From: Escherichia coli
GTDB lineage: Bacteria; Pseudomonadota; Gammaproteobacteria; Enterobacterales; Enterobacteriaceae
Reading direction: 5' to 3' (one strand)
Assembly (NCBI RefSeq): GCF_024700885.2
Contig: NZ_CP117016.1
DNA length: 64,000 bases
The notes under the pieces were generated by a model. The model made no database searches. It was given only the letters and a program-made list of their open reading frames with translations, and was not told the DNA's origin. Below, piece by piece: positions 1 through 57,469 of this stretch. The translations under genes were made by a program, and so were the position numbers. The first letter of the stretch is position 1, and the number at the start of each line of letters is the position of its first letter.

Positions 1-3000
1 AGCGTGTTCGCCGTCGAACCGTCCGCCTCTGAACCATCCTTAATGACCACCAGATCCGCGATCTTCGCCGTCCTGACATCGGCGATAAATGTCACGTTCT
101 GACTCTGAGTACTGCTGTTGATGGTTGCAGTGACTGCACTGACTCCCGCCGTCTGGCTGGTGACTGAGATCTCCAACGTCCCGTCCGGCTCTGTGATGAC
201 CGTCGGGGCTGTCGTTGCGCCGTTGTCCGCCAACACGCTGACCGTCTGCCCGGCTAGCGTGTTCCCGAACGCATCCGTCACCCTCACCCGCAGCGTGTTC
301 GCCATTGCGCCGTCAGCCACGGCGTTATCCTGCGTCACCTCCAGACTCGCGATCTGCGCCGTCCTGACATCGGCGATAAACGTCACGTTCCGGCTCGCGG
401 TACTGCTGTTGATACTGGCGGTGACGGCACTGGTGCCCGCCGTCTGGCTGGTGACACTGATCTCCACCGTGCCGTCCTGCTCGGTGATCACCGTCGGGGC
501 AGTCGTTACGCCGTTGTCCGCCAACACGCTGACCGTCTGCCCGCCAAGCGCATTACCGAACGCATCCGTCACCCTCGCCCGCAGCATATTCGCCATTGCG
601 CCGTCTGCCACTGAGTTATCCCGGGTGACCTCTAGATCCGCGATCTGCGCCGTCCTGACATCGGCGATAAATGTCACATCCCGGCTCTGACTGCTGCTGT
701 TGATGGTTGCGGTGACTGTACTGATCCCCGCCGTCTGGCTGGTGACAGAGATCTCCACCGTGCCGTCCGGCTGCGTGGTGACCGTCGGAGCAGTCGTGGC
801 ACCGTTGCCTGCCATCACGCTGACCGTCTGTCCGGCAAGCGCATTACCGAACGCATCGGTCACCCTCGCCCGCAGCATGTTCGCCATTGCGCCGTCAGCC
901 ACTGAGTTATCCTGCGTCACCTCCAGACTCGCGATCTGCGCCGTGCTGACATCGGCGATAAACATCACGTTCTGACTCAGGGTGCTGTTGTTGATGGTTG
1001 CAGTGACTGTACTGGTGCCCGCCGTCTGGCTGGTGACACTGATCTCCACCGTGCCATCCGGCTGAGTGGTCATCGTCGAAGCGACCGTTGCGCCGTTATC
1101 CGCCAACACGCTGACCGTCTGCCCGCCCAGCGTATTACCGAATGCATCGGTCACCCTCGCCCGCAGCGTGTTCGCCGTCGAACCGTCCGCCTCTGAACCA
1201 TCCTTAATAACCACCAGATCCGCGATCTTCGCCGTCCTGACATCGGCGATAAACATCACGTTCTGGCTCGCGGTGCTGTTGTTGATACTGGCAGTGACCG
1301 CACTGATTCCGGCGGTCTGGCTGGTGACAGAGATCTCCGCCGTCCCGTCCGGCTGCGTGGTGACCGTCGGAGCAGTCGTGGCACCGTTGCCTGCCAACAC
1401 GCTGACCGTCTGCCCGGCAAGCACATTACCGAACGCATCGGTGACCTTCACCCGCAGCGTGTTCGCCATTGCGCCGTCAGCCACGGCGTTATCCTGGCTA
1501 ACGACCAGATCCGCGATCTGCGCCGTCCTGACATCGGCGACAAATGTCACGTTCCGGCTCTGACTGCTGTTGTTGATACCGGCAGTGACTGTACTGGTGC
1601 CCGCCGTCTGGCTGGTGACACTGATCTCCACCATACCGTCCGGCTCTGTAATCACCGTCGGAGCAACCGTTGCGCCGTTGCCTGCCGTCACGCTGACCGT
1701 CTGCCCGGCAAGCGTATTACCGAACGCATCGGTCACCCTCGCCCGCAGCGTGTTCGCCATTGCGCCGTCAGCCACGGCGTTATCCTGGCTAACGACCAGA
1801 TCCGCGATCTGCGCCGTCCTGACATCGGCGACAAATGTCACGTTCCGGCTCTGACTGCTGTTGTTGATACCGGCAGTGACTGTACTGGTGCCCGCCGTCT
1901 GGCTGGTGACACTGATCTCCACCATACCGTCCAGCTCTGTAATCACCGTCGGAGCAACCGTTGCGCCGTTGCCTGCCGTCACGCTGACCGTCTGCCCGGC
2001 AAGCGCATTACCGAACGCATCGGTCACCCTCGCCCGTAGCGTGTTCGCCGTCAAACCGTCCGCCTCTGAACCATCCTTAATGACCACCAGATCCGCGATC
2101 TGCGCCGTCCTGACATCAGCGATAAATGTCACGTTCTGGCTCAGGGTGCTGTTGTTGATGCTGACGGTGACCGCACTGATTCCGGCGGTCTGACTGGTGA
2201 CACTGATCTCCACCGTGCCGTCCGGCTGCGTGGTGACCGTCGGAGCAGTCGTGGCACCGTTGCCTGCCATCACGCTGACCGTCTGTCCGGCAAGCGCATT
2301 ACCGAACGCATCGGTGACCCTCGCCCGCAGCATATTCGCCATTGCACCGTCTGCCACTGAGTCGTCCTTAATGACCACCAGATCCGCGATCTGCGCCGTC
2401 CTGACATCGGCGATAAACGTGACGTTCCGGCTCGCGGTACTGCTGTTGATGCTGGCGGTGACCGCACTGGTGCCCGCCGTCTGGCTGGTGACACTGATTT
2501 CCACCGTCCCGTCCTGCCCTGTGATGACAGTCGGAGCGACCGTTGCGCCGTTGCCTGCCATCACGCTGACCGTCTGCCCGGCAAGCGTATTACCGAACGC
2601 ATCGGTCACCCTCGCCCGCAGCGTATTCGCCATTGCGCCGTCAGCCACGGCGTTATCCTGCGTCACTTCCAGCACCGCAATCTGCGCCGTCCTGACATCG
2701 GCGATAAACGTCACGTCCCGGCTCTGGCTGCTGTTGTTGATGCTGGCGGTGACCGCACTGGTTCCGGCGGTCTGGCTGGTGACAGAGATCTCCACCGTGC
2801 CGTCCGGCTGCGTGGTGACCGTCGGAGCAGTCGTGGCACCGTTGCCTGCCATCACGCTGACCGTCTGCCCGGCAAGCGTATTACCGAACGCATCCGTGAC
2901 CCTCGCCCGCAGCGTGTTCGCCGTCGAACCGTCTGCCACTGAGCCGTCCTTAATGACCACCAGGTCCGCGATCTGCGCCGTCCTGACATCGGCGATAAAC

Positions 3001-5910
3001 GTCACGTTCCGGCTCGCGGTACTGCTGTTGATACTGGCGGTGACGGCACTGACTCCCGCCGTCTGGCTGGTGACACTGATCTCCGCCGTGCCGTCCGGCT
3101 CTGTAATCACCGTTGGGGCAACCGTTGCGCCGTTGCCTGCCATCACGCTGACCGTCTGACCGGTAAGCGCATTACCGAATGCATCGGTGACCTTCACCCG
3201 CAGCATATTCGCCATTGCACCGTCTGCCACTGAGTCGTCCTTAATGACCACCAGGTCCGCGATCTTCGCCGTCCTGACATCGGCGATAAACATCACGTTC
3301 TGGCTCGCGGTGCTGTTGTTGATGGTTGCAGTGACCGCACTGATTCCGGCGGTCTGGCTGGTGACAGAGATCTCCGCCGTGCCGTCCGGCTCTGTAGTGA
3401 CCGTCGGAGACACCGTTGCGCTGTTGTCTGCCGTCACGCTGACCGTCTGTCCATTCAGCGCATTCCCGAATGCATCGGTGACCCTCGCCCGCAGCATATT
3501 CGCCATTGCACCGTCAGCCACTGAGTCGTCCTTAATGACCACCAGATCAGCGATCTTCGCCGTCCTGACATCGGCAACAAACGTCACATCCCGGCTCTGG
3601 CTGCTGCTGTTGATGGTTGCAGTGACCGCACTGGTGCCCGCCGTCTGACTGGTGACACTGATCTCCACTGTGCCGTCCTGCCCTGTGATGACAGTCGGAG
3701 TGACCGTTGCGCCGTTATCCGCCAACACGCTGACCGTCTGCCCGGCTAGTGTGTTCCCGAACGCATCGGTCACCCTCACCCGCAGCGTGTTCGCCGTCGA
3801 ACCGTCCGCCTCTGAACCATCCTTAATGACCACCAGATCAGCGATCTTCGCCGTGCTGACATCGGCGATAAATATCACGTTCTGACTCTGGCTACTGCTG
3901 TTGATGGTTGCAGTGACTGCACTGACTCCCGCCGTCTGGCTGGTGACACTGATTTCCACCGTGCCGTCCGGCTCGGTGATCACCGTCGGGGCAACCGTTG
4001 CGCCGTTGTCCGCCATCACGCTGACCGTCTGTCCATTCAGCGCATTCCCGAACGCATCGGTGACCTTCACCCGCAGCGTGTTCGCCATTGCGCCGTCAGC
4101 CACTGAGTTATCCTGCGTCACCTCCAGACTCGCGATCTTCGCCGTCCTGACATCGGCAACAAACGTCACGTTCCGGCTCAGGCTGCTGCTGTTGATGCTG
4201 GCAGTGACCGCACTGGTGCCTGCCGTCTGGCTGGTGACAGAGATCTCCACCGTGCCGTCCGGCTGCGTGGTGACCGTCGGAGCAGTCGTGGCACCGTTGC
4301 CTGCCAACACGCTGACCGTCTGTCCGGCAAGCGCATTACCGAACGCATCGGTGACCTTCACCCGCAGCGTGTTCGCCATTGCACCGTCTGCCACTGAGTC
4401 GTCCTTAATGACCACCAGATCCGCGATCTTCGCCGTCTTGACATCGGCGATAAATGTCACGTTCTGACTCTGAGTACTGCTGTTGATGGTTGCAGTGACT
4501 GCACTGACTCCCGCCGTCTGGCTGGTGACACTGATTTCCACCGTGCCGTCCGGCTGCGTGGTGACCACCGGAGCAACCGTTGCGCCGTTGCCTGCCGTCA
4601 CGCTGACCGTCTGCCCGGCAAGTGTATTCCCGAACGCATCGGTCACCTTCACCTGCAGCGTATTCGCCATTGCGCCGTCTGCCACTGAGTCGTCCTTAAT
4701 GACCACCAGGTCCGCGATCTTCGCCGTGCTGACATCGGCAATAAACGTCACGTTCCGGCTCTGGCTGCTGTTGTTGATGCTGGCGGTGACCGCACTGGTT
4801 CCGGCGGTCTGGCTGGTGACAGAGATCTCCACCGTGCCGTCCGGCTGCGTGGTGACCGTCGGAGCAGTCGTGGCACCGTTGCCTGCCAACACGCTGACCG
4901 TCTGTCCGGCAAGCGCATTACCGAACGCATCGGTGACCCTCGCCCGCAGCATATTCGCCATTGCACCGTCTGCCACTGAGTCGTCCTTAATGACCACCAG
5001 GTCTGCGATCTTCGCCGTCCTGACATCGGCGATAAATGTCACGTTCTGACTCAGGGTGCTGTTGTTAATGCTGGCAGTGACCGCACTGGTGCCTGCCGTC
5101 TGGCTGGTGACACTGATCTCCACCGTGCCGTCCGGCTCTGTGGTGACGGTCGAAGCAACCGTTGCGCCGTTGTCCGCCAACACGCTGACCGTCTGTCCGG
5201 CAAGTGCATTACCGAACGCATCGGTGACCCTCGCCCGCAGCGTGTTCGCCGTCGAACCGTCCGCCTCTGAACCATCCTTAATGACCACCAGATCCGCGAT
5301 CTTCGCCGTCCTGACATCGGCGATAAATGTCACGTTCTGACTCTGAGTACTGCTGTTGATGGTTGCAGTGACTGCACTGACTCCCGCCGTCTGGCTGGTG
5401 ACTGAGATCTCCAACGTCCCGTCCGGCTCTGTGATGACCGTTGGGGCTGTCGTTGCGCCGTTGTCCGCCAACACGCTGACCGTCTGCCCGGCTAGCGTGT
5501 TCCCGAACGCATCCGTCACCCTCACCCGCAGCGTGTTCGCCGTCGAACCGTCCGCCTCTGAACCATCCTTAATGACCACCAGATCAGCGATCTTCGCCGT
5601 CCCGACATCTGCGATAAATGTCACATCCCGGCTCTGGCTGCTGGTGTTGATGCTGGCAGTGACCGCACTGGTTCCGGCCGTCTGGCTGGTGACAGAGATC
5701 TCCACCGTGCCATCCGGCTGCGTAGTGACTGTCGGAGCAGTCGTGGCACCGTTGCCTGCCAACACGCTGACCGTCTGCCCGGCAAGCGTATTACCGAACG
5801 CATCGGTGACCTTCACCCGCAGCGTGTTCGCCGTCGAACCGTCCGCCTCTGAACCATCCTTAATGACCACCAGCTCCGCGACCTGCGCCGTGCTAACATC
5901 AGCAACAAAG
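1..5910. repeat. Tandem array of about 20 near-identical ~291-bp units (a few differ by one codon), coding the repeated Ig-like domains of the adhesin
   Basis: Spurious plus-strand ORFs restart with the same peptide at 118, 700, 1570, 1861, 3901, 4483 and 5356. Spacings are multiples of 291 (+/-3). The periodicity is directly visible in the sequence. The array ends near 5910, where unique sequence begins. Confidence 0.92.
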
Positions 5911-8900
5911 TTCACCGTTTTACTATCGCTGCTTTGATTAACCTTAGCCTCAACAGTGCTGGCATCCGCTACGGTACTGCTCAGATCAACCTCTGCCATG
6001 CCATGCGCATCCGTCCTGATATCTGCGCTCTGCCCTGCATTGGCAAATACAGCCGCCCCCTTCGTCACCGTAAAGGTGACGGTCTGCTCCGGCAGCACAT
6101 TGCCAAACTGATCTTCCACCCGGACATTCACCGTATGTCGATCGCTGCCATTCGCCAGCACATCCGGGTTACCCGTTGTCACTTGCATCGCGACAATTTG
6201 TGCGCTGGCGGCATCGCCACTAATACTGTAATCATTTGAAGTCAAAGCGCTCGCCCAGCCGGACATCTGTAGCTGTGCTTTTAAACCGGTGCCAGGGAGT
6301 AATGCGGTATACGTTGCGGTATAAATTCCTTTTTGATCTTCATTCCAGGCGATGCTTTCCGCTTTTGTATTTGGCAGCTGGATAGCCTGGTTGATAGCGT
6401 ATCGTTGCCCCCCGACCAGGTTTTCATAGCTATCCTTGAGTGTCACCGTAACTTTTATCGCACCGCCCGCGGTGTAGGCCGTTTTGTCGGTAACGATGGA
6501 GGAATAAGCCAGCACAGCTCCGCTTTCGCGGATGGCATACGCATCGGATTGCTGCGCGCTACTCCATGTCGATAGTTTCAGCGTGGCGTAATGGCGATCG
6601 CCAGCAATCTTCGCGGTTCGGGTGGTGGTGTAAACGCCGTCAGACTCTTCGCTCCAGTTACCCGTTTCATTTTTATCTGTACCGCTCACCTCGACCACAC
6701 CGCTACCCGCCAGCAGCGAAGCCATCCCTTTCACCAGGTTTTTCTGCTCATCCATAAGGGTGACGGACACTTTTATCTGGCCACCCGCGGTGTATGTCAC
6801 ATCGTCCGTTTTGATGGTGGAGGTCAGCTGCGAGATATCGCCAGTGATAAAGCTCACTTCCACAGACTGACTACTGCCATTGATCTCGGCCTTGATAAGA
6901 CTGTTTACCGCCTGGTCACTGGCAAGGTTAATGCTGGCAATCCCGTCTTTATCTGTCGTCACAATACCGCCATTTGGATCGGCAAAAACCGCCGCACCAT
7001 TCACGACCGTGAAGGTAACATTTTGTCCCTGCAGTAAATTTTGATGCACATCCCTGACCGTCACAGCGACGGTATTGTGATCGCGTCTGGCAACTGCGTT
7101 ATTCGCGGTGATCTGCATCGCAGCGATTTTGGCGGTATCTTTATCACCCGCAATACTGAACGCATCCGAATGTTTGGTTTTCCAGCCGGGCATCGTCAGC
7201 TGGGCCGTTAATTTGTCGCCAATAAGATGGGCCGTATAGCTTGCTTTATAAATTCCCTCACTTTCTTCCGTCCAGGCACTAACGGCATCAGCCTTCGTGT
7301 TGTCTACTTTAACGGCTTGTTTAAGAAGTTCTTTTCTTCCGGTAACCCCGTTGCCGTTATCATCTCTCAGGGTCACTTTAACGACTATCGGCTTACCCGC
7401 GACGTAATTATCCTGGTCTGTCTCAATCGTGGAGTCAGCGCGGGATGCTGTATTCGCCACGATAGCAATCAGCGCCGGCGTCTTAGCAACATTGTCGCCG
7501 TTAAATTGCGGCATCAGCGATAACGCGCCAGACGTCTTCCCGGCGGTAACTATTTGGGTATAGGTTCCGTTACCGTTGTCTTTCCATTCGCTTAAGGCGA
7601 AATCCTGCAAACCTTTTGCCTGTGTTTTTAACGTCATACCGGGGATCGGCTTGCCGCTGGAATCTCGCGCGGTATAGGTCAGCGTTGAGGTTGATTTTCC
7701 ATCAGCAAGCAGGATTTGCAGATCGACAGAAAGCGTTGAATCGGCGAGGCTTAGTGTGGGTTTTTCCACGACCACCATACTTTCTTCACGCCGGGAGAAA
7801 TTTCCTTTCGAATCTTCCGCTGTAACCGCTATCGGGTAAGTGTTGTCGGTTTCAGGCATTGCCGTGAATCGGTAGGGAGGAATGGTGACCTGAATATCCT
7901 TGCCGGAAACAGCTACTTTTCCGCCCGCTGATTGCAGGGAGGCGGCTTCAATGTCATAACCTTTCAGCGCATATTTGGTTTGCAAGGAAGAAACCAGCGA
8001 TTTAACCTCACCCGGCTTGCCTTTCAACGGATCGGTCAGCGTCAGCCGCACCAGCTCTTTCTTGCGATATTCGAGGACAATATTGTTATTACGATCGACC
8101 AGGTCATAGCGACTGCCCACAAGGCTGCGTCGTGCTGCAACTTCAGCCGGATCGAGCTGTTTTTGCAGTGAATGACCGGGTTGCAACGTCAACTCCATAC
8201 CAATTCGGGTGTCGTTTTCTCCCTGTTTGCCCTGCCGTTGCTCGGCACTAAAGGAGATCAGGGGAACGGGGGTGTAACTCAAACCTGCGGTAATCGCGTG
8301 AGGATCATTTTGTCGCTCGTCTTTACCAAACAGCGCCACTTCATCGCCATAATATTGTTCATAGACCAGCTTGCCGCCCAGCTGCGGCCAGGCCGGTAAC
8401 CAGCCTTCGGCGCGAAGATCCCACCCGTTCGCCGGACGTGCTTCATAGTCATTGTCGAGTTCCGGTGCACTACGCCAGTTACTGAGGCGCAGATAACCGT
8501 TGCCGCTCAGTTTCAGGTAATCGCGCCAGTATTCAACGCCCATCCCGGTTCGGGTGTGATAGCGGGTCAGGTCATGATCGATAAACATATTGACGCCAGA
8601 CATCCAGCTCGATGTGAAATAACGCCAGCCGATACCGTGGTTGGTTTGAGTGCGATCATCCGTACGGTGAAGTGTGTGCTGGCTGAAGACCAGGTTATCC
8701 GGCGTTTCGTACCAGGGATGGAGAAATTCAAATGACGAGCTTTTAAGGCTGAAATCTTCATCCACACCAAGAGATACCCGGGCAGTTCCCCAACGGCTGA
8801 GCCAGTCCGTTGCCTGCGCAGAGGCAGAAGAAGCCACCCAGCCACGCGCCATACTTGCAGCCTGTTCGCTGTCCATATCGCGCGCTAAAAGTGTTCCGCT

Positions 8901-9353
8901 TTGCTGCGCCACTTCCGCGACCTGCATTTGCGGATCTTTGCCATCGCGCTCCATCTGCATTGCTTTCAGGTTGCGCGCTTCAGGGCTGTTACTGTTAATG
9001 AGGGGCACATCTATTTCATCGCCCTGACGCACATTGTCAAAGCCCCGCGCAAAGGTACGGAACTGATTCAGGCGACGTAATTCATCAACGGTGATACCAA
9101 AGCGTGCCGCGACCGTTGGTGGCGATTCCAACGCACCCAGGGTATATGGAATAGTTTTAACTTTCGGCAGGATCAGTGACGCGGCAGTATCCGAGTGCGC
9201 AGGATTAATATGCGTAGGGGCAGCAGCCATAACAGGGAAAATAGTTTGTGTTATCAGGCAAATACCGGCGGTCAGACGACGTAAACGATCCCCCAATCCA
9301 CATATGGTGTTATCGCCCCGACGATCGCCATTCCCATGCACTTTCCCTGCCAT
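1..9353 (-). CDS. Giant inverse-autotransporter (intimin/invasin-family) adhesin; 3' end lies beyond the left window edge
   Basis: Not in the ORF track because the minus frame has no stop inside the window. Manual translation from ATG at 9353 (revcomp of cat 9351-9353; in-frame TGA and TAG just upstream) gives MAGKVHGNGDRRGDNTICGLGDRLRRLTAGICLITQTIFPVMAAAPTH... It continues through a LysM-like segment, an intimin-type barrel block (WLSRWGTARVSLGVDEDFSLKSSSFEFLHPWYE...RPANGWDLRAEGWLPAWPQLGGKLVYEQYYGDEVALFGKD...GSRYDLVDRNNNIVLEYRKKE), divergent Ig-like domains, then 97-aa repeats (FIADVxTAKIADLVVIKDGSEADGSTANTLRVxVTDAFGNTLAGQTVSVLAxNGATTAPTVTTQPDGTVEISVTSQTAGTSAVTASINTSSQSRDVT). I hand-translated about 9353 down to 5300 with no stop. 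Openness of the rest is inferred from repeat identity and from the absence of a terminated long minus ORF in the track. Confidence 0.85.
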   Translation of the reverse strand, partial: MAGKVHGNGDRRGDNTICGLGDRLRRLTAGICLITQTIFPVMAAAPTHINPAHSDTAASLILPKVKTIPYTLGALESPPTVAARFGITVDELRRLNQFRTFARGFDNVRQGDEIDVPLINSNSPEARNLKAMQMERDGKDPQMQVAEVAQQSGTLLARDMDSEQAASMARGWVASSASAQATDWLSRWGTARVSLGVDEDFSLKSSSFEFLHPWYETPDNLVFSQHTLHRTDDRTQTNHGIGWRYFTSSWMSGVNMFIDHDLTRYHTRTGMGVEYWRDYLKLSGNGYLRLSNWRSAPELDNDYEARPANGWDLRAEGWLPAWPQLGGKLVYEQYYGDEVALFGKDERQNDPHAITAGLSYTPVPLISFSAEQRQGKQGENDTRIGMELTLQPGHSLQKQLDPAEVAARRSLVGSRYDLVDRNNNIVLEYRKKELVRLTLTDPLKGKPGEVKSLVSSLQTKYALKGYDIEAASLQSAGGKVAVSGKDIQVTIPPYRFTAMPETDNTYPIAVTAEDSKGNFSRREESMVVVEKPTLSLADSTLSVDLQILLADGKSTSTLTYTARDSSGKPIPGMTLKTQAKGLQDFALSEWKDNGNGTYTQIVTAGKTSGALSLMPQFNGDNVAKTPALIAIVANTASRADSTIETDQDNYVAGKPIVVKVTLRDDNGNGVTGRKELLKQAVKVDNTKADAVSAWTEESEGIYKASYTAHLIGDKLTAQLTMPGWKTKHSDAFSIAGDKDTAKIAAMQITANNAVARRDHNTVAVTVRDVHQNLLQGQNVTFTVVNGAAVFADPNGGIVTTDKDGIASINLASDQAVNSLIKAEINGSSQSVEVSFITGDISQLTSTIKTDDVTYTAGGQIKVSVTLMDEQKNLVKGMASLLAGSGVVEVSGTDKNETGNWSEESDGVYTTTRTAKIAGDRHYATLKLSTWSSAQQSDAYAIRESGAVLAYSSIVTDKTAYTAGGAIKVTVTLKDSYENLVGGQRYAINQAIQLPNTKAESIAWNEDQKGIYTATYTALLPGTGLKAQLQMSGWASALTSNDYSISGDAASAQIVAMQVTTGNPDVLANGSDRHTVNVRVEDQFGNVLPEQTVTFTVTKGAAVFANAGQSADIRTDAHGMAEVDLSSTVADASTVEAKVNQSSDSKTVNFVADVSTAQVAELVVIKDGSEADGSTANTLRVKVTDAFGNTLAGQTVSVLAGNGATTAPTVTTQPDGTVEISVTSQTAGTSAVTASINTSSQSRDVTFIADVGTAKIADLVVIKDGSEADGSTANTLRVRVTDAFGNTLAGQTVSVLADNGATTAPTVITEPDGTLEISVTSQTAGVSAVTATINSSTQSQNVTFIADVRTAKIADLVVIKDGSEADGSTANTLRARVTDAFGNALAGQTVSVLADNGATVASTVTTEPDGTVEISVTSQTAGTSAVTASINNSTLSQNVTFIADVRTAKIADLVVIKDDSVADGAMANMLRARVTDAFGNALAGQTVSVLAGNGATTAPTVTTQPDGTVEISVTSQTAGTSAVTASINNSSQSRNVTFIADVSTAKIADLVVIKDDSVADGAMANTLQVKVTDAFGNTLAGQTVSVTAGNGATVAPVVTTQPDGTVEISVTSQTAGVSAVTATINSSTQSQNVTFIADVKTAKIADLVVIKDDSVADGAMANTLRVKVTDAFGNALAGQTVSVLAGNGATTAPTVTTQPDGTVEISVTSQTAGTSAVTASINSSSLSRNVTFVADVRTAKIASLEVTQDNSVADGAMANTLRVKVTDAFGNALNGQTVSVMADNGATVAPTVITEPDGTVEISVTSQTAGVSAVTATINSSSQSQNVIFIADVSTAKIADLVVIKDGSEADGSTANTLRVRVTDAFGNTLAGQTVSVLADNGATVTPTVITGQDGTVEISVTSQTAGTSAVTATINSSSQSRDVTFVADVRTAKIADLVVIKDDSVADGAMANMLRARVTDAFGNALNGQTVSVTADNSATVSPTVTTEPDGTAEISVTSQTAGISAVTATINNSTASQNVMFIADVRTAKIADLVVIKDDSVADGAMANMLRVKVTDAFGNALTGQTVSVMAGNGATVAPTVITEPDGTAEISVTSQTAGVSAVTASINSSTASRNVTFIADVRTAQIADLVVIKDGSVADGSTANTLRARVTDAFGNTLAGQTVSVMAGNGATTAPTVTTQPDGTVEISVTSQTAGTSAVTASINNSSQSRDVTFIADVRTAQIAVLEVTQDNAVADGAMANTLRARVTDAFGNTLAGQTVSVMAGNGATVAPTVITGQDGTVEISVTSQTAGTSAVTASINSSTASRNVTFIADVRTAQIADLVVIKDDSVADGAMANMLRARVTDAFGNALAGQTVSVMAGNGATTAPTVTTQPDGTVEISVTSQTAGISAVTVSINNSTLSQNVTFIADVRTAQIADLVVIKDGSEADGLTANTLRARVTDAFGNALAGQTVSVTAGNGATVAPTVITELDGMVEISVTSQTAGTSTVTAGINNSSQSRNVTFVADVRTAQIADLVVSQDNAVADGAMANTLRARVTDAFGNTLAGQTVSVTAGNGATVAPTVITEPDGMVEISVTSQTAGTSTVTAGINNSSQSRNVTFVADVRTAQIADLVVSQDNAVADGAMANTLRVKVTDAFGNVLAGQTVSVLAGNGATTAPTVTTQPDGTAEISVTSQTAGISAVTASINNSTASQNVMFIADVRTAKIADLVVIKDGSEADGSTANTLRARVTDAFGNTLGGQTVSVLADNGATVASTMTTQPDGTVEISVTSQTAGTSTVTATINNSTLSQNVMFIADVSTAQIASLEVTQDNSVADGAMANMLRARVTDAFGNALAGQTVSVMAGNGATTAPTVTTQPDGTVEISVTSQTAGISTVTATINSSSQSRDVTFIADVRTAQIADLEVTRDNSVADGAMANMLRARVTDAFGNALGGQTVSVLADNGVTTAPTVITEQDGTVEISVTSQTAGTSAVTASINSSTASRNVTFIADVRTAQIASLEVTQDNAVADGAMANTLRVRVTDAFGNTLAGQTVSVLADNGATTAPTVITEPDGTLEISVTSQTAGVSAVTATINSSTQSQNVTFIADVRTAKIADLVVIKDGSEADGSTANT
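8055..8813 (-). other. Inverse-autotransporter beta-barrel domain region of the adhesin (about aa 181-433)
   Basis: Strong block similarity to the intimin/invasin/FdeC barrel as I remember it (HRTDDRTQxNxGxGWRYF, IDHDLxRxHTRxGxGxEYWRDYLKLSxNGY, RPANGWDxRAEGxLPAWPQLG, YEQYYGDEVxLFGKD, GSRYDLVxRNNNIVLEYRK). Confidence 0.8.
9003..9155 (-). other. LysM-like peptidoglycan-binding segment of the adhesin (about aa 67-117)
   Basis: Translated segment TIPYTLGALESPPTVAARFGITVDELRRLNQFRTFARGFDNVRQGDEIDVPL has the LysM pattern seen at the N-terminus of intimin-like proteins. Confidence 0.6.
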
Positions 9354-9554
9354 TTGTCATCCCTGTCGCTATGCGTTCGGATTAAATGACCTTTCTTTAA
9401 CATGAGGGAAAATGATGATTCATGATTAGCAAATGATGAATACAGGCGGAATAATGGAAATAACAACAAGATAAGAACAATACCTGATCAAGGATTATCA
9501 GGAGGAAGAACAGGAGAGCTTCCCGCCAGAGCAGTAACCCCTCCTGTAAATACG

Positions 9555-40750: not shown

Positions 40751-41164
40751 TTAGTTGATTTCGATACGGCGCGGTTTTTTCGCTTCCGGAATCACGCGTT
40801 CGAGATCGATATACAGCAGACCATTCACCAGGTTAGCGCCACGAACATGAATGTTCTCAGCTAACTGGAATTTGCGTTCAAAGTTGCGTTCAGCGATGCC
40901 CTGGTACAGATAGGTGCGCTCTTTTTGTTCGTCGGCGTGAGCACCTTTCACCACCAGCAGATTATCCTGGGCGGTAATTTCCAGTTCGCTCTCAGCAAAA
41001 CCAGCCACAGCGATAGCAATGCGGTAATGGTTTTCGTCTACCAGTTCAACGTTATACGGAGGGTAGCCGCCATTACTCTGGCTCTGGTTGTTTTCTAAGT
41101 GGTTAAACAAACGGTCAAATCCAATAGCAGAACGGTAAAGCGGGGATAAATCAAAGTTACGCAT
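40751..41164 (-). CDS. ibpA: Small heat-shock protein IbpA
   Basis: ORF 40751..41170. [24 protein letters not shown] starts at 41164 (137 aa). Confidence 0.93.
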
Positions 41165-41266
41165 AATCAATAGCTCCTGAAATCAGCGAGAATGTAAGAC
41201 CTTCCACAATGGACAGGTCAGGTAGCCAGAACACCCATCAGGCGCGTCCTCATCGGCTACGATGTA

Positions 41267-51315: not shown

Positions 51316-51425
51316 ATAGCTTCTTGCCGGATGCGGCGTTAACGTCTGATCCGGCCTACAAAATCATGCAAATTCAATATATTGCACGAGTCTCGTAGGC
51401 CTGATAAGCGTAGCGCATCAGGCAC
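51316..51425. repeat. BIME (paired REP elements)
   Basis: gccggatgcggcgttaacgtctgatccggcctac ... gtaggcctgataagcgtagcgcatcaggc forms inverted REP copies between yidB and gyrB. Confidence 0.85.
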
Positions 51426-56065: not shown

Positions 56066-57469
56066 TTACGATGACAATGTTCTGATTAAATTTGAAAAAT
56101 CTTCTTTGATATCGTGGCTCTCTTCACGCAGCTGCTCGATCTTCCGGCAGGCATGAAGCACCGTCGTGTGGTCACGACCACCAAACGCATCGCCAATCTC
56201 CGGCAGACTGTGGTTAGTCAGCTCTTTCGCCAGCGCCATCGCCATCTGGCGCGGACGCGCCACCGAGCGGGATCGACGCTTAGAAAGGAGATCCGCGACT
56301 TTGATCTTGTAGTACTCCGCCACCGTCTTCTGAATATTGTCGATAGTGACCAGTTTTTCCTGCAATGCCAGCAAGTCGCGCAGCGCCTCACGCACGAAGT
56401 CGATGGTGATCGCCCGTCCGGTAAAGTTAGCGTTAGCAATAACGCGGTTCAGCGCGCCTTCCAGCTCACGTACGTTAGATCGTAGACGCTTGGCGATAAA
56501 GAACGCCACTTCGCCCGGCAAACGAATGTCGTTTTCGTCGGCCTTTTTCATCAGGATCGCCACGCGGGTTTCCAGCTCTGGCGGTTCGATCGCCACAGTC
56601 AGCCCCCAGCCGAAGCGGGATTTCAAACGATCCTCAACGCCGTTGATCTCTTTCGGATAGCGATCCGAGGTGAGAATGATCTGTTGATTACCTTCCAGCA
56701 GGGCGTTGAAGGTGTGGAAAAACTCTTCCTGAGATCGTTCTTTATTAGCAAAAAACTGAATATCGTCGATCAGCAGTGCATCTACGGAACGGTAGTAGCG
56801 TTTAAACTCTTCGATCGCGTTGTTTTGCAGGGCTTTTACCATGTCCTGAACAAAGCGCTCGGAGTGCATATAAACCACTTTGGCATTCGGCTTGCGCGCC
56901 ATAATGCCGTTACCCACCGCATGCAGCAGGTGAGTTTTACCCAGACCCGTGCCGCCATAAAGGAACAACGGGTTATAGGCACCGCCAGGGTTATCTGCCA
57001 CCTGGCGAGCCGCCGCGCGCGCCAGTTGGTTAGATTTACCTTCAACGAAGTTATCAAACGTGTGTTTGACGTTTACGTTAGAACGATAGGTCGGTTCTGC
57101 CGGGGCCGGGACGTTATCCCAACCTGAGCGCGTAGAAGGCGCAGCACGTTGCGGCTGCGTTTGCGCCACCTGTGCAGGGGCCGCGACGTTGCTCGTCACT
57201 GCCGCTTGTGGCGTTTGCGTCACCGGTTTGGTACCGACTTCAAAACGCAGCTGTGGGGCATCCGCTCCGCAGAAACTGGTTAGCAGTCCATTGATATTAT
57301 TAAGGTACTTGTCCCGTACCCAATCGAGGACAAAACGGTTTGGCGCGTACAGGGCCAGCGTGTTATCGCTCAGTTCCGCCTGCAATGGGCGTATCCACAT
57401 ACTGAATTCTGTGGCTGGTAACTCATCCTGCAATCGGGCAAGACACTGCTGCCAAAGCGAAAGTGACAC
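56066..57469 (-). CDS. dnaA: Chromosomal replication initiator DnaA
   Basis: ORF 56066..57481. The known GTG start at 57469 gives (M)[28 protein letters not shown] (467 aa). It has the AAA+ motif [10 protein letters not shown]. Confidence 0.97.

What the first reader, a model, noticed from the sequence alone, without database searches (positions are those of the whole stretch)
1..9353. Giant inverse-autotransporter adhesin gene hidden from the ORF track
The largest gene in the window is not in the supplied track, because its minus-strand frame never terminates inside the window. Instead the track shows about 20 plus-strand ORFs that are antisense artefacts. Translating from ATG 9353 gives a LysM-like segment, a well-conserved intimin/invasin beta-barrel, several divergent Ig-like domains, and then a long run of 97-aa repeats. 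More than 3100 codons are visible and the C-terminus is still missing. This locus (downstream of nepI) holds no such gene in K-12 as I remember it, so it is accessory. A surface adhesin of this size with such a homogeneous repeat stalk is worth characterising for length variation, binding specificity of the missing distal domain, and regulation.
Basis: partly seen in the sequence, partly recalled or inferred. Interest (0 to 1): 0.62.

Follow-up and report, generated by a model that had tools for sequence, protein, structure and literature searches.

The report
Known giant adhesin gene iatC/air
The long open frame is real, but it is the first three-quarters of iatC (also called air or eaeX), a giant intimin/invasin-type surface adhesin of some E. 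coli strains that has already been named, cloned and studied, so the finding is correct but ordinary.

Summary
Window 1-9353, minus strand, reads as 3117 codons with no stop. It contains an inverse-autotransporter beta-barrel (Pfam E 5e-108), seven divergent Ig-like domains, and 20 full 97-aa Big_1 repeats (291-nt period) that run off the window.

The gene is not new. NCBIfam's IatC model scores above its cut-off, and RefSeq annotates identical DNA as iatC. The published PCR primers for the EAEC gene "air" match exactly and give the published 600-bp amplicon.

In E. coli MLI114, which is 100% identical over all 9353 nt, the gene is 12,864 nt (4287 aa). It has 25 repeats and an invasin D4-D5-like tip, and it lies between nepI and eilA in the eip (selC-B) island. 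K-12 lacks this island; 754 of 5426 complete genomes carry the gene.

Surface display, biofilm and adherence roles, EilA control, the LysM call and variation in repeat number are all published.

Two modest additions:
- This allele has the most repeats of the ten I sampled (range 11-25).
- It carries a minority tip type, about 53% identical to the common one.

In passing, an AT-rich islet between uhpA and ilvN encodes two orphan paralogues. One was modelled and has a predicted EspG/VirA effector fold, and both conserve the Arg and Gln finger residues.

The parts
1..9353 (-). iatC (= air = eaeX) coding sequence: the 5' 9353 nt of a 12,864-nt gene. The 3' 3511 nt lie beyond the left edge of the window.
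   Evidence: 3117 codons with no stop. NCBIfam NF040978 IatC N-terminal model scores 2797.5 bits against a cut-off of 2400, covering residues 1-1065 of 1065. The DNA is 100% identical to iatC of E. coli MLI114, annotated as 12,864 nt.
9351..9364 (-). Start codon ATG (9353-9351), in-frame TGA two codons upstream (9359-9357), and an AGGGA Shine-Dalgarno-like motif (9364-9360).
   Evidence: Sequence and translation of 9300-9560. The RefSeq start in elppa4 and MLI114 maps to the same base.
9216..9353 (-). N-terminal extended signal-peptide region (residues about 1-46): basic stretch ...RLRR followed by hydrophobic LTAGICLITQTIFPVMAAAP.
   Evidence: Read directly from the translation. No signal-peptide predictor was available, so the boundary is approximate.
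9006..9158 (-). LysM-like periplasmic segment (residues about 66-116).
   Evidence: Pfam LysM is sub-threshold: E 0.028, 14.8 bits against a cut-off of 20.9, residues 81-98. Goh 2019 (InterPro) and Fox 2020 (ScanProsite) call it LysM.
8085..8909 (-). Inverse-autotransporter beta-barrel translocation domain (residues 149-423).
   Evidence: Pfam IAT_beta PF11924, E 5.3e-108, profile positions 3-279 of 279.
5925..8054 (-). About seven divergent Ig-like (Big_1 / Invasin_D3) domains (residues about 434-1143).
   Evidence: Pfam Invasin_D3 best stretch at 537-633, plus Big_1 stretches. Domain boundaries were parsed by eye. This region is 97-99% identical among all sampled alleles.
1..5924 (-). Array of 97-aa (291-nt) Big_1 repeats from residue 1144 onwards. 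The window holds 20 full units plus a partial one; the complete gene has 25.
   Evidence: TRF period 291, 20.3 copies. Exact 97-aa spacing of VTDAFGN. An HMM built from the units finds 25 high-scoring copies at residues 1144-3568 in the full-length allele.
7408..8007 (.). Target of the published 'air' diagnostic PCR: primers at 7408-7427 (+) and 7988-8007 (-).
   Evidence: Both primers from PMC3256949 match with 0 mismatches. The amplicon is 600 bp, as published.
9354..9554 (-). 201-nt AT-rich spacer between the nepI stop and the iatC start. It contains a weak terminator-like hairpin (9502-9483) and no consensus sigma-70 promoter on the gene's strand.
   Evidence: The pattern scan is only suggestive.

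Best explanation
Window 1-9353 (minus strand) is the 5' 73% of iatC, also published as air (enteroaggregative immunoglobulin repeat protein) and eaeX. It is a chromosomal type Ve (inverse autotransporter) adhesin of the intimin/invasin family, encoded in the eip / selC-B island between yicS and nepI.

By analogy with intimin and invasin (inferred, not shown here), it would work as follows:
1. The protein is exported by Sec using the N-terminal signal.
2. The LysM-like segment stays in the periplasm.
3. Residues 149-423 form a 12-stranded outer-membrane barrel.
4. The C-terminal passenger is threaded out through the barrel and folds into a rod of Ig-like domains.

The passenger has about 7 divergent domains, then 25 copies of a 97-aa Big_1 repeat, then about 5 more divergent domains. 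It is capped by an invasin D4-D5-like (C-type-lectin-like) tip, which lies outside the window.

Shown experimentally by others, for other alleles:
- surface display and biofilm promotion (SMS-3-5 allele);
- reduced epithelial adherence and biofilm in an eaeX mutant of EAEC 042;
- transcriptional control of the island by the HilA-like regulator EilA, whose gene converges on the 3' end of iatC.

The repeat array expands and contracts in 291-nt steps between lineages. This allele is at the long end.
For: - Open frame and domains.
- NCBIfam IatC equivalog-domain model above its cut-off.
- RefSeq annotation of identical or near-identical DNA as iatC or 'EaeX/Air'.
- Exact match of the published air primers with the 600-bp product.
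- MLI114 is 100% identical over all 9353 nt and has an intact 12,864-nt gene flanked by nepI and eilA. elppa4 has the same length and the full eip island.
- Full-length Pfam: Big_1 in 27 stretches, IAT_beta, Invasin_D4 at 4107-4164.
- The last 269 aa match the invasin structure 1cwv domains D4-D5, E 3.9e-18.
- K-12 lacks the island; 754 of 5426 complete genomes carry the gene.
- Published function and regulation: PMC6714894, PMC7058095, PMC4210603.
- Intact sampled alleles fit 8802 nt plus a multiple of 291 nt, to within 12 nt, and carry 11 to 25 repeats.
Against: - The 3' 3511 nt are not in the window. Intactness in this exact source is inferred from identical genomes.
- LysM is below Pfam's threshold.
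- The distal tip of this allele is only about 53% identical to the tip of the common alleles, which include one of the same length as the functionally tested SMS-3-5 allele. Published phenotypes may therefore not transfer fully.
- Goh 2019 found no binding to extracellular matrix and no autoaggregation, so the receptor is unknown and 'adhesin' rests on biofilm and adherence phenotypes.
- Several lineages carry frameshifted, IS1-truncated or deleted copies, so the gene is dispensable.
- No consensus promoter was found upstream.
Confidence: 0.97

Rival explanations
1. The frame is a decaying pseudogene or remnant in this strain. It is open in the window but disrupted further downstream, as in several other lineages.
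For: Sampled genomes include a frameshifted copy (PCN033), IS1-truncated copies (strain 222; AF14) and deleted or degraded copies (100117; EC556). The window does not show the 3' end.
Against: The only genome 100% identical over all 9353 nt (MLI114) has an intact 12,864-nt CDS. elppa4, at 99.9% identity, also has an intact 12,864-nt CDS. More than 3100 codons without a stop in a repetitive gene argues for maintained selection.
Confidence: 0.03
2. The long homogeneous array is partly an assembly artefact: repeat number inflated or collapsed by mis-assembly. The apparent record length would then not be real.
For: Tandem 291-nt repeats at 85% identity are hard to assemble. In the protein database many copies are 'partial' proteins cut inside the array, for example one cluster of 1955 members at 1710 aa. 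A patch of 9 mismatches in 55 nt separates the window from elppa4 inside one repeat.
Against: Nineteen independent complete genomes from different hosts and continents match the 9353 nt at 99% identity or more, colinearly in one piece. The units differ enough (mean 85% at the DNA level) to be placed uniquely by long reads. Intact allele lengths across lineages fit whole multiples of 291 nt above 8802 nt, to within 12 nt.
Confidence: 0.04
3. It is a previously undescribed adhesin, distinct from known E. coli inverse autotransporters.
For: The allele is 1300 aa longer than any IatC reported by Goh 2019 (2459-2965 aa), and its tip is divergent.
Against: NCBIfam IatC model above its cut-off. RefSeq gene name iatC/air. 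Exact air primer sites. Same locus and neighbours as eaeX in the selC-B/eip island. The N-terminal 1143 aa are 97-99% identical to all other alleles.
Confidence: 0.01

Closest known systems
IatC of E. coli SMS-3-5 (EcSMS35_4024; Goh et al. 2019, PMC6714894)
   Same: Same gene and locus. Same signal, LysM-like segment, barrel and first seven Ig domains: the N-terminal 1143 aa are about 98% identical to an allele of the same 8802-nt length. The NCBIfam IatC model is passed. That allele was shown to be surface-exposed and to promote biofilm.
   Different: The allele here has 25 rather than 11 copies of the 97-aa repeat (4287 against about 2933 aa). Its D4-D5 tip is only about 53% identical. Goh et al. 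reported a range of 2459-2965 aa and saw no repeat-number variation.
Air / EaeX of enteroaggregative E. coli 042 (Sheikh et al. 2006, as cited in PMC3256949 and PMC7058095)
   Same: The air diagnostic primers match exactly and give a 600-bp product. Same island gene set: chaperone, YopB/SseC-like and IpaD/SipD-like translocators, eilA. RefSeq names some alleles at this locus 'EaeX/Air'. The eaeX mutant is less adherent and forms less biofilm; EilA regulates the island.
   Different: I did not retrieve the 042 allele itself, so its repeat number and tip type relative to this one are unknown.
Invasin of Yersinia pseudotuberculosis (PDB 1cwv)
   Same: Same architecture class: inverse-autotransporter barrel, Ig-like rod and C-type-lectin-like cap. 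The last approximately 170 aa of the full-length allele align to invasin D4-D5 at E 3.9e-18. Pfam Invasin_D3 and Invasin_D4 both hit.
   Different: Invasin has 4 Ig-like domains plus the cap; IatC has roughly 38. Whether the integrin-binding determinants of invasin are conserved was not established, and Goh et al. found no extracellular-matrix binding.
Intimin (eae) of EPEC/EHEC
   Same: Homologous barrel and LysM-barrel-Ig-lectin layout. The NCBIfam intimin model hits at 423 bits.
   Different: That score is far below the intimin cut-off of 1400 bits. There is no Tir partner in this island. Intimin has a short rod.
YrIlm of Yersinia ruckeri and YeeJ of E. coli (large inverse autotransporters with many Big_1 repeats)
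   Same: Giant type Ve adhesins with long runs of similar Ig repeats. The YrIlm N-terminal model hits at 413 bits.
   Different: That score is below the family cut-off of 750 bits, and the loci differ. The YrIlm repeats are described as almost identical, whereas these average 82% identity.
Escherichia albertii orthologues (1454-1763 aa, 'inverse autotransporter beta domain-containing protein')
   Same: 66-69% identical over the first 1065 aa, with the same Pfam set including Invasin_D4.
   Different: They are far shorter, so they cannot hold a 25-copy array. Their repeat content was not examined.

Membership tests
Inverse autotransporter (type Ve secretion; intimin/invasin family) | N-terminal 12-stranded beta-barrel translocation domain (Pfam IAT_beta PF11924) placed before the passenger | tested here: met
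   Residues 149-423, E 5.3e-108, full profile length; the passenger lies C-terminal to it.
Inverse autotransporter (type Ve secretion; intimin/invasin family) | Passenger built of bacterial Ig-like (Big_1 / Invasin_D3) domains | tested here: met
   Big_1 in 23 stretches within the window and 27 in the full-length protein.
Inverse autotransporter (type Ve secretion; intimin/invasin family) | N-terminal Sec signal peptide | tested here: inconclusive
   A basic stretch followed by a hydrophobic stretch is visible in residues 20-46. No predictor was available.
Inverse autotransporter (type Ve secretion; intimin/invasin family) | Periplasmic LysM domain (present in the large members, not universal) | tested here: inconclusive
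   Pfam LysM scores 14.8 bits against a cut-off of 20.9. It is called LysM in PMC6714894 and PMC7058095.
Inverse autotransporter (type Ve secretion; intimin/invasin family) | C-type-lectin-like distal cap (as in invasin D5 and intimin D3) | tested here: met
   Not in the window. In the identical-sequence genomes the last approximately 170 aa align to invasin 1cwv D4-D5, E 3.9e-18, and Pfam Invasin_D4 hits.
Inverse autotransporter (type Ve secretion; intimin/invasin family) | Surface exposure of the passenger | not testable with these tools
   Shown by immunofluorescence for the SMS-3-5 allele only (PMC6714894).
IatC / Air / EaeX orthologue group | NCBIfam NF040978 (IatC N-terminal equivalog domain) at or above its curated cut-off | tested here: met
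   2797.5 bits against a cut-off of 2400, positions 1-1065 of 1065.
IatC / Air / EaeX orthologue group | Chromosomal position next to nepI, convergent with eilA, inside the eip / selC-B island | tested here: met
   nepI is adjacent in the window. eilA and the eip genes are adjacent in MLI114 and elppa4. This matches the description in PMC7058095.
IatC / Air / EaeX orthologue group | Carries the published air PCR target | tested here: met
   Both primers match exactly; 600-bp amplicon.
Intimin (eae) | NCBIfam intimin_all at or above its cut-off of 1400 bits | tested here: not met
   423 bits. It is a homologue, not an intimin.

The most novel reading that the evidence does not exclude
The lineage represented here carries a distinct functional subtype of IatC/Air. 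It has the longest stalk seen in my sample (25 repeats, 4287 aa, perhaps about 140 nm if each Ig domain adds about 3.6 nm, which is an inference). It also has a minority receptor-binding tip, about 53% identical to the common tip and found at 99% DNA identity or more in only 37 of 730 tip-positive genomes. IatC would then resemble intimin in having tip subtypes with different binding specificities, and the published SMS-3-5 phenotypes (the 042 allele was not retrieved) need not apply to this allele.
Probability: 0.3. Interest if true: 0.3.

Novelty: already known. Interest (0 to 1): 0.1.

Why it matters
The main result is a correct annotation. A 12.9-kb virulence-associated adhesin gene is easily missed when it runs off a window, and short-read assemblies routinely break it inside the repeats. 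The literature and RefSeq also use three names (iatC, air, eaeX) for one locus without cross-reference. It matters little beyond that, because structure class, surface display, biofilm and adherence role, EilA regulation and repeat-number variation are already published. The remaining open questions are narrow: the receptor, the meaning of the divergent tip types, and whether stalk length has a phenotype.

Tried and rejected
- **Protein database for allele lengths.** I searched the 5.8-billion-protein database with the first 1065 aa to get a length distribution. It was uninformative: the best hits are mostly 'partial' proteins cut inside the array, and no full-length giant appeared among the 120 listed. 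I sampled annotated complete genomes instead.\n- **Padded synthetic BLAST query.** I considered this as a way to measure gene length in 60 genomes at once, then dropped it as a hack in favour of direct annotation look-ups.\n- **LysM confirmation.** I tried Pfam at a permissive E-value. The hit stays sub-threshold, so I report it as LysM-like only.\n- **Promoter.** I looked for one in the nepI-iatC spacer. No consensus site lies on the gene's strand, and there is only a weak terminator-like hairpin. No conclusion drawn.\n- **Gene conversion at 2991-3045.** I checked whether the 9-mismatch patch is an exact copy of another repeat. Identity with air rests on the primers, the synteny and the RefSeq naming.\n- **uhpA-ilvN islet proteins.** Pfam, NCBIfam, PADLOC and PHROGs gave nothing, and neither did a profile search of PDB sequences. 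Only fold comparison was informative.
Full report

Yes. The reverse complement of window 1-9353 translates into 3117 codons without a stop. ATG 9353 is the first possible start. An in-frame TGA lies two codons upstream, and an AGGGA motif lies 7 nt before the ATG. The ORF lister omits ORFs that run off the source, which is why this frame is missing from the list. In its place the list shows 17 plus-strand ORFs of 80 aa or more inside 1-9353.

Within the repeat region all of those plus-strand ORFs start at a coordinate equal to 1 mod 3. They are therefore one nearly open antisense frame cut by occasional stops. The four largest have no Pfam match. The gene is G+C-rich (58% overall, 62% in the repeats) against 51% for the rest of the window. 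That composition is the usual reason for long antisense ORFs.

**2. Anatomy**

Pfam finds the inverse-autotransporter barrel at residues 149-423 (E 5.3e-108, full profile length). It also finds Big_1 in 23 stretches and Invasin_D3.

Tandem Repeats Finder reports a 291-nt unit, 20.3 copies, 85% matches, at window 1-5900. The motif VTDAFGN recurs 20 times at exactly 97-residue spacing. The 20 complete units are 71-94% identical at the protein level (mean 82%) and 85% on average at the DNA level. The array is regular, but it is a mosaic of alternative cassettes rather than a run of near-identical copies.

About seven divergent Ig-like domains (residues about 434-1143) lie between the barrel and the array. 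I parsed these by eye, supported by the Pfam stretches.

The 'LysM-like' segment scores only 14.8 bits against Pfam's cut-off of 20.9. Two papers call it LysM with InterPro or ScanProsite.

**3. What it is**

NCBIfam's equivalog-domain model for the IatC N-terminus scores 2797.5 bits against a cut-off of 2400 and aligns end to end. The intimin, SinH, YchO, Ilp and YrIlm models all score far below their cut-offs.

Megablast against 5426 complete E. coli genomes finds identical DNA annotated 'iatC: inverse autotransporter adhesin IatC'. Other alleles at the same locus are annotated 'air: inverse autotransporter adhesin EaeX/Air'.

The primers published for the enteroaggregative E. coli gene air (PMC3256949) match with no mismatch at 7408-7427 and 7988-8007. 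They give exactly the published 600-bp product. So iatC, air and eaeX are one gene. The paper that coined iatC does not mention air, eaeX, eilA or selC.

**4. The missing end and the neighbourhood**

E. coli MLI114 (human stool, Mali) is 100% identical over all 9353 nt. Eighteen more genomes are at least 99% identical.

In MLI114 and in elppa4 the gene is 12,864 nt (4287 aa). It ends 49 nt from the convergent gene eilA, a HilA-like regulator. Beyond eilA, in elppa4, lie an IpaD/SipD-like tip protein, a YopB/SseC-like translocator and a SycD-like chaperone, up to yicS. This is the eip or selC-B island described for EAEC 042. K-12 has yicS and nepI 41 nt apart.

The full-length protein has 25 copies of the 97-aa unit at residues 1144-3568. 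About five further divergent Ig-like domains follow, then an Invasin_D4 hit at 4107-4164. The last approximately 170 aa align to domains D4-D5 of the invasin structure 1cwv at E 3.9e-18. The window therefore holds 73% of the gene.

**5. Mechanism**

The mechanism is inferred from the family:
1. Sec export using the N-terminal signal.
2. The LysM-like segment remains in the periplasm.
3. The barrel inserts into the outer membrane.
4. The C-terminal passenger is threaded out through the barrel and folds into a rod of roughly 38 Ig-like modules capped by a lectin-like tip.

Invasin's five-domain rod is about 18 nm long (from memory). By that measure this rod would be of the order of 140 nm, which is an inference.

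Shown by others:
- The SMS-3-5 allele is on the cell surface and promotes biofilm. It does not cause autoaggregation or extracellular-matrix binding (PMC6714894).
- An eaeX mutant of EAEC 042 adheres less and forms less biofilm, and EilA regulates the island (PMC7058095 citing Sheikh 2006; PMC4210603).

None of this was tested for the present allele.

**6. Variation**

The gene is accessory. 754 of 5426 complete genomes match the 5' non-repeat part, and 749 of them over at least 80% of it.

I sampled 13 further loci. Intact genes measure 8802, 9966, 10,257, 10,548, 11,130, 11,424, 12,282 and 12,864 nt. These lengths fit 8802 plus 0, 4, 5, 6, 8, 9, 12 and 14 times 291, to within 12 nt. The unit HMM counts 11 to 25 copies.

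Other copies are damaged:
- frameshifted (PCN033);
- IS1-truncated (strains 222 and AF14);
- deleted or degraded (100117 and EC556).

The allele in the window has the most repeats of those sampled. [quoted passage not shown] Goh et al. saw none and gave a range of 2459-2965 aa.

One point I did not find in the papers I read concerns the tip. The N-terminal 1143 aa are 97-99% identical in all alleles. The last 190 aa of this allele, by contrast, are only about 53% identical to the tip of six other sampled alleles, and 87% identical to that of strain A30. At the DNA level, the tip matches as follows among the 730 tip-positive genomes:

| DNA identity to this tip | Genomes |
|---|---|
| 99% or more | 37 |
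| 90-95% | 44 |
| 80-90% | 39 |
| 60-80% (partial alignment) | 611 |

So this is a minority tip type.

**7. Verdict on the finding**

The novelty is nil: this is a named gene with an NCBI family model, PCR diagnostics used in EAEC epidemiology, and two functional studies. The only modest additions are the copy-number series from long-read genomes and the tip subtypes. Interest is 0.1.

**8. Noticed in passing: an effector-like gene pair between uhpA and ilvN**

This may be more interesting than the finding itself.

*The islet.* K-12 has uhpA and ilvN 75 nt apart. The window has a 3.3-kb islet there with 33-37% G+C against about 57% in the flanks. It carries two minus-strand ORFs, at 20806-22368 and 22478-23773. 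The two are paralogues (26% identity, E 3e-27).

*No sequence-level family.* Neither ORF has a Pfam, NCBIfam, PADLOC or PHROG match. The homologues found, 121 clusters at 62-100% identity, are all from Escherichia, and every source name given is 'hypothetical' or 'uncharacterised'.

*Fold.* An AlphaFold model of the 431-aa protein, built from an 18-sequence alignment, has moderate confidence (pLDDT 66.8, pTM 0.55).
- In Foldseek, all 27 hits with E at or below 1e-3 are EspG or VirA chains (best 2e-7). The next hit is E 0.38, and TM-scores are only 0.3-0.45.

*Catalytic residues.* The single local hhalign hit against EHEC EspG has low probability (6%). It pairs 'SVTMDAHR' (R222) with EspG 'SIFMDTCR'. 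That EspG arginine is R208. EspG 'AFYQSF' (Q293) resembles 'SSAQGY' (Q324). R208 and Q293 are the catalytic fingers of EspG's Rab1-GAP activity (PMC4017587). R222 and Q324 are invariant in all 18 aligned sequences, including the paralogue.

*Distribution.* All seven iatC-positive genomes I checked have two genes at this site. O157 Sakai has four fragments there (ECs4607-4610). I found no paper treating these genes as effectors.

*Reading.* A reasonable hypothesis is that the islet encodes two divergent EspG/VirA-family type III effector-like proteins, possibly linked to the ETT2/eip system. The fold evidence comes from a medium-confidence model. Co-occurrence with iatC may simply reflect phylogeny.

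Noticed in passing
[not shown]
   Followed up: partly
window 22478-23773 and 20806-22368; L001 36579-37061: RefSeq annotates the 431-aa ORF as a 160-aa CDS (483 nt) in elppa4 and several other genomes, although the 431-codon frame is intact there and in the window. A30 and TB06051 annotate the full 1296 nt. The neighbouring paralogue is annotated at lengths from 367 to 489 aa in different genomes, so its start is uncertain.
   Followed up: partly
window 10973-11633 (+): A RelE/ParE-family toxin (Pfam RelE, E 1.9e-38) and an HTH/MqsA-like antitoxin gene overlap by 17 nt between nepI and yicN. This pair is absent from K-12. It is present in all sampled iatC-positive genomes and in O157 Sakai, and frameshifted in CREC-544 and MS6198.
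   Followed up: partly
window 2991-3045: Nine of the twelve differences between the window and E. coli elppa4 over 32.5 kb fall in a 55-nt patch inside one 291-nt repeat. MLI114 has the window's version. Neither version occurs elsewhere as an exact 75-mer. The patch could be a short gene-conversion tract or a polishing difference.
   Followed up: partly
iatC locus in RefSeq and the literature: One locus carries three names. RefSeq labels alleles with 98% identical N-termini either 'iatC / IatC' or 'air / EaeX/Air'. The paper that named iatC does not cite the earlier air/eaeX/eilA work.
   Followed up: yes
protein database hits to the first 1065 aa: Most database copies of this protein are 'partial' and end inside the repeat array, for example one cluster of 1955 members at 1710 aa. 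The gene appears to be routinely broken in assemblies, probably short-read ones. PCR or short-read surveys therefore cannot see repeat number or tip type.
   Followed up: no
L003 3381-4089; L014 4334-5052; L004 8736-8888; L012 8038-10191: The 3' end of iatC and the eip genes have decayed independently several times. IS1 insertions truncate the gene in strains 222 and AF14. A deletion fuses the chaperone remnant to a truncated iatC in strain 100117. EC556 has a degraded middle section.
   Followed up: no
summary: One of the 755 records matching the iatC 5' region is a plasmid record rather than a chromosome. It was not inspected and could be a mis-assigned contig or a real transfer.
   Followed up: no
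window 26351-26480 (-), 41158-41230 (-), 51360-51402 (+), 56879-56959 (+): Rfam matches above gathering score: istR antitoxin sRNA, a ROSE_2 RNA thermometer, ES036 (CssrF) sRNA, and AsdA, the antisense RNA of dnaA. All are expected for this part of the E. coli chromosome.
   Followed up: no
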